NCBI GenBank assembly: GCA_019057475.1
Contig: DXJO01000046.1
Location: forward strand, 64,001-128,000
DNA from: Candidatus Thorarchaeota archaeon
GTDB taxonomy: Archaea > Asgardarchaeota > Thorarchaeia > Thorarchaeales > Thorarchaeaceae
Reading direction: 5' to 3'
DNA: 64,000 bases
In this document: in pieces, positions 41,661 to 59,997 of the stretch
How the letters are laid out: every line of letters starts with the position of its first letter
Position numbering within the stretch: the stretch's first letter is position 1
Translations under genes and position numbers: made by a program
Notes under the pieces: model-generated
Told to the model about the DNA's origin: nothing
What the model saw: the letters and a program-made list of their open reading frames with translations, nothing else
The model's database searches: none

Positions 41661-41729
41661 AAGATCGTCATGGGACGGGAGATATTCGGTCCTGAGAACC
41701 TGCCCCACAGGCAAGAGAAACAGATGTAA
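41661..41729 (+). repeat. R1: acd 3'-end copy (KIVMGREIFGPENLPHRQEKQM*)
   Basis: aagatcgtcatgggacgggagatattcggtcctgagaacctgccccacaggcaagagaaacagatgtaa. Confidence 0.95.
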
Positions 41730-41794
41730 TTCCTACTTGACCGAATAGTAAAGAAGCCCTTGAGTCACCTTTTCCGATCCTTTTTGATCATAGC

Positions 41795-42565
41795 CTACTG
41801 AATGAAGGCTAAACTCACCTCGGGTCCAGTACTGCTATTGACATACCATGTGCCGAAGTAGCCAATATATACCCACGTGACCGTTACCTGAACACTCACC
41901 ACGAGCCCTTCACCTTCCTGCACCTTCAGACCTATTGAAGCCACGAACTTCTCCTTCATGACATGCACTACTAGTGGCCAGCCCCCAAATCCACTAATGT
42001 CCCATCTTGCCCAGTTCATATTCGTGTCATTCCCACAATATCGGAATGCGACATATCCTGCTCCTATCCCGAAGTGCCGGTAAGGGGTGAGCCAACCCGG
42101 ATCTGGATGTCTGAATGAAAAGAGCAGCTTAGGGGGTCCAACGCTAGAATTACAGGATGAGATGTTCAACTGAACCGTGATGTATGAAGGACAAATGGTT
42201 GAGTCATTGCCGTGCCTGATATCTAATAGATGATATTCGATGAAGTAAAAGTCATTCTCGGGTATCTCGTCAGCGATTCTGAATGCACTGAGCTGAACTC
42301 CGAGGCTTTCATCCTCCTTCGAACTGGAACTGATATGAAAAAGATCTGCTGGAAATACGTCCCTCTCATACGACGGGGGGGTGATGGTTATAGGTAGAAA
42401 TAGGGCGGATAACACAATCACTATCAACAAGATTGCGATACCTCTCCAGTGTTTCACAGCCAATGCCATCCTCTTTGCTTGCAACCCGTGACTCTTTACG
42501 TATTCGGCCTGTTTAGGAGGGGGATTGCCCAAATCATCATATACTGGTTTTGATATTAAAATCAA
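41795..42565 (-). CDS. Hypothetical membrane-anchored protein (true start probably internal)
   Basis: Single N-terminal TM/signal segment (GIAILLIVIVLSALFL) followed by a beta-rich domain; sole gene between R1 and R2. Confidence 0.65.
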   Translation of the reverse strand: MILISKPVYDDLGNPPPKQAEYVKSHGLQAKRMALAVKHWRGIAILLIVIVLSALFLPITITPPSYERDVFPADLFHISSSSKEDESLGVQLSAFRIADEIPENDFYFIEYHLLDIRHGNDSTICPSYITVQLNISSCNSSVGPPKLLFSFRHPDPGWLTPYRHFGIGAGYVAFRYCGNDTNMNWARWDISGFGGWPLVVHVMKEKFVASIGLKVQEGEGLVVSVQVTVTWVYIGYFGTWYVNSSTGPEVSLAFIQ

Positions 42566-42645
42566 TCTGATTCCATCATCTGGTTGGTCAGTGCCCTCAG
42601 GTTAAACAGTCTATACCAGCGGACCCATTGGATGAATCTTCCAAA

Positions 42646-42760
42646 GTGATGGCTAGGGAGGTAGATGGCCCTGAGAACCTGCCCTCGAAACAAGAGAAGC
42701 AGATGTAGTTATGACCGCAGTATTGAGAGAAGTTCGTCCTCTCTCCCTCACTCTTTCTTC
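42646..42760 (+). repeat. R2: acd 3'-end copy (VMAREVDGPENLPSKQEKQM*) plus hairpin, type B arm
   Basis: gtgatggctagggaggtagatggccctgagaacctgccctcgaaacaagagaagcagatgtag...gagagaagttcgtcctctctccctcactcttt. Confidence 0.9.
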
Positions 42761-42767
42761 GCTTGAA

Positions 42768-59002: not shown

Positions 59003-59389
59003 ATGCTCCAGCTGACAAGAGCGCTGCTCCTCATCACCTTCTACTGGTTGATGTTGATTGAGTTTGCTCAGAGGCCAAGTTGGTCAGGTGGACCCGACAT
59101 CATGACTGCGCCCCCCTCGCCATTACTCTTTTGGTTGGGGCTTCTTGATGTTGTGACTGCAATCCAACTGTGGAGAGCAAACATCCAGGGCTGGAGATAC
59201 GGGGTCTTGATGAGCTTGGTGATTGTCCTTGCCGCGTTGCTGTTCCTGCCCAACATAATAATTCTAAGGCACGACGCCATGTCTATTTTAGCCATAGAGA
59301 TTCTTCTTTTTTCGGCAGCGGAATTAATTGTGCTAATCACTCCAGGCGTTCGCCAGCACTTCGGCGTGCAATCGTGGTTAGGAGTTTAG
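59003..59389 (+). CDS. Small membrane protein (4 TM)
   Basis: Hydrophobic 128-aa ORF ending TPGVRQHFG; sole gene between R7 and R8. Confidence 0.75.
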   Translation: MLQLTRALLLITFYWLMLIEFAQRPSWSGGPDIMTAPPSPLLFWLGLLDVVTAIQLWRANIQGWRYGVLMSLVIVLAALLFLPNIIILRHDAMSILAIEILLFSAAELIVLITPGVRQHFGVQSWLGV

Positions 59390-59396
59390 CAGCGCG

Positions 59397-59512
59397 GCCA
59401 TGGCCACGCGAATTTTCGGTCCTGAGAACCTCCCCTACATTCGAGAGAAGCGGAAGTAGTTCTCATTCTGGTTTGAGAGAGGCACGTTCTCGCTCCATTT
59501 CTCTCTTTTCTC
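59397..59512 (+). repeat. R8: acd 3'-end copy (AMATRIFGPENLPYIREKRK*) plus hairpin, type A arm
   Basis: atggccacgcgaattttcggtcctgagaacctcccctacattcgagagaagcggaagtagttctcattctggtttgagagaggcacg. Confidence 0.93.
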
Positions 59513-59750
59513 AACAAATAGAAGATTTCTTCCCCCTAAGACTGATGTATAGTTCTCTAATGCATATGTGAAAAGCAAGAAAAGTACAAAATACTGCTGC
59601 CACGAGAATAAAAAATACAACAGGATCAGAATAGGGTGCACCAGAGACTAATAGAATCAGAGCTACTCCAATGAATGCAATGACGCCTCTCATCACAAAC
59701 CTTTGATTGTTGGAGTCTTCAGGATCGAGCTAGGAGTCATCAGCGTTCAT
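59511..59750 (-). pseudogene. Small 2-TM protein with in-frame TAG at codon 7 (or a 61-aa protein starting at 59696)
   Basis: From ATG 59750: MNADDS*LDPEDSNNQRFVMRGVIAFIG...; sole ORF between R8 and R9. Confidence 0.45.
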
Positions 59751-59877
59751 AGTGCAAGATACCTGATTAGACATAACGAGGTCCCTTGGGAATATCCCAC
59801 GTAAACATCTTATCTTGAAACGTTATAAGCATAATTTAGGAAGTGCCTGCGCCTTCAGCGCATTCTGGATGGTGACA

Positions 59878-59997
59878 ATCGTCATGGCCAGAGAGAATTC
59901 TCGCCCTGAGAATCTGCCCTACAGACAAGAGAAGCAGAGGTAGTTCTCATTCTAGTTTGAGAGAGGCCAGTCCTCTCTCCATCTCTCCTTATTCTCA
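59878..59997 (+). repeat. R9: acd 3'-end copy (IVMARENSRPENLPYRQEKQR*) plus hairpin, type A arm
   Basis: atcgtcatggccagagagaattctcgccctgagaatctgccctacagacaagagaagcagaggtagttctcattctagtttgagagaggccagtcctctctc. Confidence 0.95.

What the first reader, a model, noticed from the sequence alone, without database searches (positions are those of the whole stretch)
41661..59943. Repeat copies diverge like coding sequence, so they look like former working acd C-termini
Seen: R1 versus the resident gene shows 10 synonymous codon changes (ata/atc, ggc/gga, agg/cgg, gaa/gag, att/ata, ctc/ctg, ccg/ccc, cgg/agg, aag/aaa, tag/taa) and only 3 amino-acid changes over 23 codons. R2, R4, R6, R7, R8 and R9 keep the frame with the stop at the same position. 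All eight near-complete copies encode P-E-N where the resident gene has P-E-Y. Inference: the copies did not arise by neutral duplication of the present gene. They are 3' ends from divergent functional acd alleles, probably of related strains or species. Each insertion would then swap the enzyme's C-terminus, and the array would record a history of donors.
Basis: partly seen in the sequence, partly recalled or inferred. Interest (0 to 1): 0.8.

Follow-up and report, generated by a model that had tools for sequence, protein, structure and literature searches.

The report
Homing nuclease builds gene-end cassette array
In a group of Asgard archaea, a selfish DNA-cutting gene appears to keep invading the last 22 codons of one metabolic gene, supplying a new gene ending each time and pushing the old one aside, and the stack of dead endings now frames a shuffled array of extra genes, much like an integron but with no integrase.

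Summary
R1 differs from the resident acyl-CoA dehydrogenase (acd) end by 10 synonymous and 3 amino-acid changes. Variants shared between copies are mostly synonymous (11:5); private ones look neutral (6:28). So the copies descend from working alleles and decayed after displacement. The host is a Thorarchaeota; 50 of 71 family genomes searched have two or more matches, and copies start sharply at codon 390/391. The likely driver is absent from the window but sits in relatives: a two-motif LAGLIDADG nuclease gene, usually with a HerA-like ATPase, tail-to-tail with acd and followed by a displaced end (about 14 intact loci; 7 of 8 found nuclease-first). Nuclease clades track their target gene. No recombinase lies at the array. 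The 'donor archive' idea is weak: most copies match the host genus's own allele, no donor can be named, and cassettes are inherited and shuffled among congeners. It works like fungal mitochondrial end-replacing endonuclease ORFs. The scan noted single-copy cases in other archaea before; new here is repeated use of one site to build cargo arrays. Cleavage is untested.

The parts
36850..38088 (+). Resident acyl-CoA dehydrogenase gene (412 aa), the target gene
   Evidence: PF02771, PF02770, PF00441; 80-93% identical orthologues across Thorarchaeota
38020..38088 (+). Working 3' end (codons 390-412 and stop); the inferred cut and insertion point is at its left edge
38089..38192 (+). Post-stop arm with a hairpin/T-tract, terminator-like; 86% identical to the arm behind R4
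   Evidence: the hairpin folds significantly only in the R4 copy
38265..41660 (+). Unit 1 cargo: unknown ORF, ArsR-type regulator, two membrane proteins; its first gene is also first cargo in relative L076, behind a different acd end
41661..41729 (+). R1, displaced acd end (QM* type), least decayed
42646..42760 (+). R2 displaced end plus terminator-like arm
42768..46196 (-). Cargo: beta-helix/NosD surface protein and flavodoxin
   Evidence: flavodoxin block 91% identical in congener G001 in another order
46230..46285 (+). R3, terminator-like arm only (coding part lost)
46300..47775 (-). Cargo: MFS transporter
47877..48046 (+). R4 displaced end plus 100-bp post-stop arm; best match is the congener's working allele (87%)
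   Evidence: a related strain's contig joins acd sequence to an R4-like end (table 5c, run X5)
49199..49238 (+). R5, truncated copy; R5-R6 form a cargo-less unit of about 70-110 bp
49269..49387 (+). R6 displaced end (QM* type) plus arm
49438..58644 (-). Cargo: 3068-aa beta-helix and cadherin/Ig-repeat surface protein
58763..58880 (+). R7 displaced end plus arm
59397..59511 (+). R8, most decayed in-frame copy (pN/pS about 1) plus arm
59878..59995 (+). R9 plus arm; its left half travels with the upstream cargo and its right half with the downstream cargo in congeners
60054..61049 (+). Cargo: DUF362 protein; 93% identical block in congener G001
61104..61188 (+). R10, decayed copy with an in-frame stop that is shared with the congener's orthologous copy
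61219..64000 (.). Further cargo (secreted protein, FMN reductase) and a degenerate copy near 63770-63852; the array continues to C26:133415, next to a conserved 139-aa gene (YjbQ-like by my recall, not checked against Pfam)

Best explanation
The copies are former acd C-termini displaced by a free-standing LAGLIDADG homing-endonuclease element specific for acd. Step 1 (inferred): the nuclease cuts an element-free acd allele near codons K390/I391. Step 2 (inferred; resulting layout shown): the break is repaired from donor DNA, so the gene gains an in-frame replacement end and terminator, then the convergent nuclease gene, often a HerA-like ATPase gene and sometimes cargo, and the old end is stranded behind. 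Step 3 (shown): the stranded end decays neutrally and the nuclease gene is lost, leaving fragments or empty units. Step 4 (inferred): the site becomes cleavable again and the cycle repeats. Step 5 (shown in congeners): recombination between the repeats reorders and duplicates cargo blocks. How nuclease-free cargo units first arise is open: loss of the nuclease from cargo-bearing elements, hitch-hiking in the same donor segment, or joining of foreign DNA to the cut end. In this genome the array is a relic with no nuclease gene left in it.
For: Gene-first search: 7 acd loci with an intact nuclease gene directly behind the stop, 6 with partial hits (remnants, some cut by contig ends), and L112 (acd 91% identical to the window's) with two small genes between. 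Nuclease-first search: 7 of 8 homologues lie tail-to-tail with acd (one repeats L089). Pfam LAGLIDADG_3 hit, both motif aspartates invariant, predicted fold nearest PI-SceI and I-DmoI. Nuclease tree clades follow the neighbouring gene: acd 100/98, etfA, oadA, hutU, tfs and rpl44 each 100. Sister clades leave their own stranded gene termini (oadA 254 bp at 91%, hutU-like 158 bp). Left edge lies at -3 to +6 of codon 390 in 81 of 121 copies, with one beyond -6. Ends next to a nuclease gene are furthest from the copy consensus at third positions: 0.40, against 0.52 for other residents (p=0.007) and 0.66 for copies. Synonymous differences to close relatives rise towards the site, like a co-conversion tract. 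Empty units share the element's end motif. Shared versus private variant split.
Against: No nuclease or ATPase remnant in this window's array, and only 1 non-resident copy in the whole set is followed by one. Cleavage was not tested. Foldseek E-values are weak (best 1.7e-3). The window's own resident end is close to the copy consensus (0.75), so it does not look immune. 77 different upstream sequences among 90 full copies are not explained by simple homing. Two loci hold longer acd duplicates (L192 codons 286-411, L196 357-411). Loci are related, so p-values across them overstate.
Confidence: 0.78

Rival explanations
1. A tyrosine or serine recombinase acting in trans integrates small elements into acd, as tRNA-targeting islands do; the ATPase-nuclease pair is only frequent cargo, for example a defence module.
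For: A displaced 3' fragment with a fixed left edge is the classic island layout (own knowledge). The genome has 8 PF00589 matches. An earlier scan note read a related ATPase-nuclease pair as defence (e1-1511695).
Against: No PF00589 match on the array contig and no integrase-like ORF recognised beside the arrays inspected by eye (not scanned by family). Array-bearing G046 (one contig, 86% complete) has neither PF00589 nor PF00239, and G014 (97%) has no PF00589. No conserved arm left of the edge. A cargo role does not explain nuclease clades that follow their target gene.
Confidence: 0.1
2. One reading: each copy is the end of a different donor strain or species, so the array is a donor archive.
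For: R1 and R6 (QM*) match other lineages' alleles best (88%). Some arrays hold a foreign-type copy (AENL in SMTZ1-45 and L116). The tree does not put the copies with the resident alone; a single-clade test is inconclusive (p-AU 0.075).
Against: Six of seven tested window copies group with genus alleles; copies share genome-specific residues (PEN, PDF, PEC, NEY); orthologous copies with shared decay exist in congeners.
Confidence: 0.12
3. Only one or a few invasions happened; the many copies come from duplication and shuffling between repeats, with cargo arriving later by unrelated insertions.
For: R8-R9 and R12-R13 blocks are 84% duplicates. Crossovers map to the conserved right half of the repeat. 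Related strains show joints at repeats.
Against: 77 unrelated junctions end within a few bases of the same codon. One junction carries different host-type ends in five loci, and the ATPase elements share a junction but have different ends. At least three terminator types occur in the window.
Confidence: 0.2
4. Neutral duplication of the present gene end, with the synonymous excess arising only on the resident's branch.
For: R8 and R10 fit this null; R6 and R9 do not reject it.
Against: R1, R2, R4 and R7 reject it; shared variants are synonymous; the edge is fixed across the family.
Confidence: 0.03

Closest known systems
Mobile endonuclease ORFs (mORFs) of fungal mitochondria that bring a foreign C-terminus: Allomyces macrogynus atp6; Glomus sp. 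atp6, atp9, cox2, nad3 (PMC3630166)
   Same: In-frame replacement C-terminus, then an endonuclease ORF (LAGLIDADG in Glomus atp6), then the displaced native end, which is closer to relatives' alleles than the incoming end is.
   Different: Archaeal chromosome; nuclease gene convergent, not fused in frame; HerA-like ATPase partner; cargo genes; up to about 14 stacked ends at one site instead of one.
Integrons and CALINs, reported also in Asgard archaea (PMC9668308)
   Same: Array of small, varied cargo modules (median about 1.2 kb) between repeats, reordered among relatives.
   Different: No IntI nearby and no attC boxes (0 of 90 copies); repeats are coding-gene ends; growth happens inside a housekeeping gene.
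Tyrosine-integrase genomic islands and tandem island arrays at tRNA or protein-gene 3' ends (own knowledge)
   Same: Target gene restored by an element-borne end; displaced fragment marks the far boundary; tandem accretion.
   Different: No integrase in the units and no conserved attachment arm.
Free-standing phage homing endonucleases (T4 Seg and Mob, intronless homing; own knowledge)
   Same: Nuclease gene next to its target; the linked allele is protected by sequence differences and co-converted.
   Different: Those do not duplicate the target's end or build arrays.

Membership tests
End-replacing homing endonuclease element (mORF type) | Endonuclease ORF between a replacement end and a displaced end | tested here: met
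   Met in relatives (L060, L083, L086, L089, L184, L192, L193, L194, L199). Not present in this window's own array.
End-replacing homing endonuclease element (mORF type) | Target gene stays intact through an in-frame replacement end | tested here: met
   All nuclease-adjacent acd genes end in an intact 22-25 residue tail
End-replacing homing endonuclease element (mORF type) | Displaced end is closer to relatives' native allele than the incoming end is | tested here: inconclusive
   Direction as expected, but only 60 columns and support 88/82
End-replacing homing endonuclease element (mORF type) | Nuclease cuts the element-free allele and spares the linked one | not testable with these tools
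   Indirect only: linked ends diverge most at third positions
LAGLIDADG homing endonuclease | Two LAGLIDADG helices with acidic catalytic residues, and the fold | tested here: met
   Both aspartates invariant in 8 proteins; PF14528; top structural matches are LAGLIDADG proteins, with weak E-values
Integron / CALIN | IntI integrase or attI next to the array | tested here: not met
   No PF00589 match on contig C26; attI itself not searched
Integron / CALIN | attC sites with RYYYAAC and GTTRRRY boxes | tested here: not met
   0 of 90 copies; no attC covariance model was run
Integron / CALIN | Cassettes move as units between repeats | tested here: met
   Reordered blocks in congeners with breakpoints in the repeats
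Integrase-type genomic island | Integrase gene inside the element and conserved attachment arms | tested here: not met

The most novel reading that the evidence does not exclude
A homing endonuclease acts as a gene-capture engine. Its recurrent cut in acd is repaired one-sidedly, or in trans from nuclease-free donors, so foreign DNA is joined to the cut end again and again. This gives an integrase-free, integron-like cassette array across Thorarchaeota, possibly with the HerA-like ATPase moving or unwinding donor DNA.
Probability: 0.35. Interest if true: 0.85.

Novelty: new variant of a known kind. Interest (0 to 1): 0.7.

Why it matters
It would give Thorarchaeota a route for gaining and reshuffling accessory genes (surface proteins, transporters, restriction systems) that needs no integrase, and it names a testable enzyme and target site. 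It offers a countable record of repeated homing cycles at one site, which is rarely visible. It also points to a family of LAGLIDADG nucleases with target genes predictable from context (acd, etfA, oadA, pccB, hutU-like, tfs, rpl44e). Practically, the last codons of such genes are unreliable for phylogeny, and the repeats break assemblies: many acd contigs stop here.

Tried and rejected
A 13-6-13 palindrome with crossover at the G-P codons, suggested by the resident/R1 pair: no general signal over 66 adjacent pairs (7.4 vs 7.3 matches, p=0.62). attC boxes: 0 of 90. Tyrosine and serine recombinases at the array: none. Remnants of the nuclease or ATPase in the window's array: none at E 0.01. Exact-match test of the 10-mer at the edge as an immunity mark: weak (Mann-Whitney p=0.024, Fisher p=0.11). 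Naming a donor for any copy: failed. Single-clade test: inconclusive. The 902-aa partner of the genome's C21 ATPase shows no clear BLAST similarity to the acd-type nuclease. No RNA holder was listed. Other runs were laid as contigs only, at 88% likeness, so their joints may come from congeners. Paper searches found no description of this system; the library lacks most subscription journals. Outside the family the DNA model matched 1 of 71 genomes weakly, but it was built from family sequences. Searches failed on input errors.

Full report
1. Observation. The resident gene at 36850-38088 is an acyl-CoA dehydrogenase. Its last 22-23 codons, often with the post-stop hairpin and T-tract, recur on the same strand at 41661, 42646, 47877, 49199 (partial), 49269, 58763, 59397, 59878 and 61104, as an arm alone at 46230, and three more times past the window end. 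The R1 counts are exactly as reported, and all eight long copies read P-E-N. Pooled against the resident, pN/pS is 0.23 and differences by codon position are 27, 29 and 52. A neutral duplicate of a gene that keeps evolving would also show a synonymous excess, with an expected ratio near 0.5. R1, R4, R2 and R7 beat that null, R6 and R9 do not reach significance, and R8 and R10 fit it. The clearer result is the split: variants shared by copies are 11 synonymous to 5 non-synonymous, private ones 6 to 28, which is the neutral share. The copies therefore come from working alleles and decayed afterwards.

2. Distribution. The host is a Thorarchaeota. A model of the end matches 63 of 71 family genomes; 50 have two or more matches and 43 have three or more, counts that include the gene's own end (my tally). 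Among 121 distinct copies the left edge falls within -3 to +6 of codon 390 in 81, beyond -6 in one, and 36 are shortened. Nothing is conserved left of the edge, and 90 full copies have 77 different upstream sequences. Units have a median size of about 1.2 kb.

3. No recombinase at the site. The genome has eight tyrosine-recombinase matches, none on this contig. G046 has an array but neither family was found, and G014 lacks PF00589; both are incomplete assemblies. attC boxes are absent.

4. The likely driver. In relatives the first unit behind acd often holds a convergent 600-1070 aa gene with helix-turn-helix repeats and two LAGLIDADG motifs, usually preceded by an 850-aa HerA/DUF87-type ATPase, and then a displaced end. 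Of 50 distinct working ends, 7 have an intact nuclease gene within 450 bases and 6 a partial hit. The reverse search is independent of acd: 7 of 8 homologues looked up lie tail-to-tail with acd, and the eighth has a decayed acd tail upstream. Both motif aspartates are invariant, and the model's nearest solved structures are PI-SceI, I-DmoI and kin, at weak E-values. The wider family sits at other genes, and its tree follows the neighbour (14 changes against a shuffled mean of 25, 0 of 200 shuffles as low; acd clade 100/98 with two rows of unknown neighbour). Sister elements leave stranded copies of their own targets' termini. Some acd elements carry cargo between the ATPase and the displaced end (L184, L193, L197). 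Empty units of about 140-150 bp keep the element's end motif (L084, L091). Ends linked to a nuclease gene are the most divergent from the copy consensus at third positions, and synonymous differences between the window's gene and two close relatives rise from 0-3 to 5-7 per 20 codons towards the site. Both fit protection by divergence and co-conversion, but neither proves it.

5. Whose ends are they? Copies resemble others from the same genome (third-position identity 0.61, against 0.53 across genera). In the window, R4, R7, R9 and R2 best match the congener's working PENL allele, while R1 and R6 best match other lineages at 88%. The tree places six copies with genus alleles and the resident on another branch, at modest support. 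This is the Glomus pattern, where the displaced end is native and the resident end is the newcomer (PMC3630166). Blocks of the array are 86-94% identical in congeners but in another order. At R9 and R10 the left half of the repeat stays with the upstream cargo and the right half with the downstream cargo. So shuffling happens in the conserved right half, whereas insertion sets the left edge. Contigs of related strains show further joints at the repeats.

6. Mechanism and status. Shown: layout, fixed edge, neutral decay, nuclease-acd linkage, nuclease loss, shuffling. Inferred: cleavage, immunity, repair from donor DNA, renewed sensitivity. Open: how nuclease-free cargo units arise. One junction occurs in five loci with different displaced ends and terminators, which suggests that cargo-only units can home by hitch-hiking or in trans. 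The many unrelated junctions at one codon suggest joining of foreign DNA to the cut end, but loss of nucleases from many different cargo-bearing elements is not excluded.

7. Comparison and novelty. The basic unit works like the fungal mitochondrial mORFs (PMC3630166). Earlier scan notes describe single end-replacing nuclease cassettes in other archaea (e1-4808053, e1-5474994); I did not test them and found them after my own analysis. I found no paper on this Thorarchaeota system. New are the ATPase partner, the family of target-specific clades, and stacking at one site into cargo arrays that behave like integrons without being integrons. Verdict: real, a new variant of a known kind, interest 0.7.

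Noticed in passing
L174:5715-6638 (own genome C18): Truncated LAGLIDADG gene of the same family, convergent on the TFS/RpoM gene; a congener has the full ATPase-nuclease element at this site (L178).
   Followed up: partly
L172:5189-10456 and L173:3824-11409 (own genome C21, C42): Two more HerA-like ATPase plus large partner pairs; the C42 pair abuts a methylmalonyl-CoA mutase fragment. Probably further targets of the same element type.
   Followed up: partly
L176 (own genome C51:82564-88468); also C28, C22:12766, C8:18977, C42:383034: acd-end copies far from acd, some as mini-arrays among defence-like genes; G075 has them scattered over its scaffold. Unexplained: moved blocks or secondary sites.
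   Followed up: partly
own genome C18:48599-51177, C56:35072-36705, C19:94309-95685, C40:113543-117884, C46:67294-72042: Other genes with a single short downstream copy of their own 3' end: candidate further insertion sites.
   Followed up: no
L177:8031-8284 and 10418-10671: oadA/pycB-like gene start duplicated at 91% across a LAGLIDADG gene: start replacement by a sister clade.
   Followed up: partly
L192:795-1283; L196:2746-2910: Longer acd duplicates (codons 286-411 and 357-411) that break the fixed-edge rule.
   Followed up: no
window 49438-58644: 3068-aa beta-helix plus cadherin/Ig-repeat surface protein carried as one unit; largely without cover in three other runs laid.
   Followed up: partly
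own genome C51:107650-108819, C47:20760-22010: Tyrosine integrases lying right behind protein-coding genes (an ABC ATPase; a topoisomerase VI A-like fragment), suggesting islands that target protein genes.
   Followed up: no
window 20167-24191: Two tandem paralogous secreted proteins with long D-T-D-x-D-G acidic repeats before a C-terminal membrane anchor.
   Followed up: no
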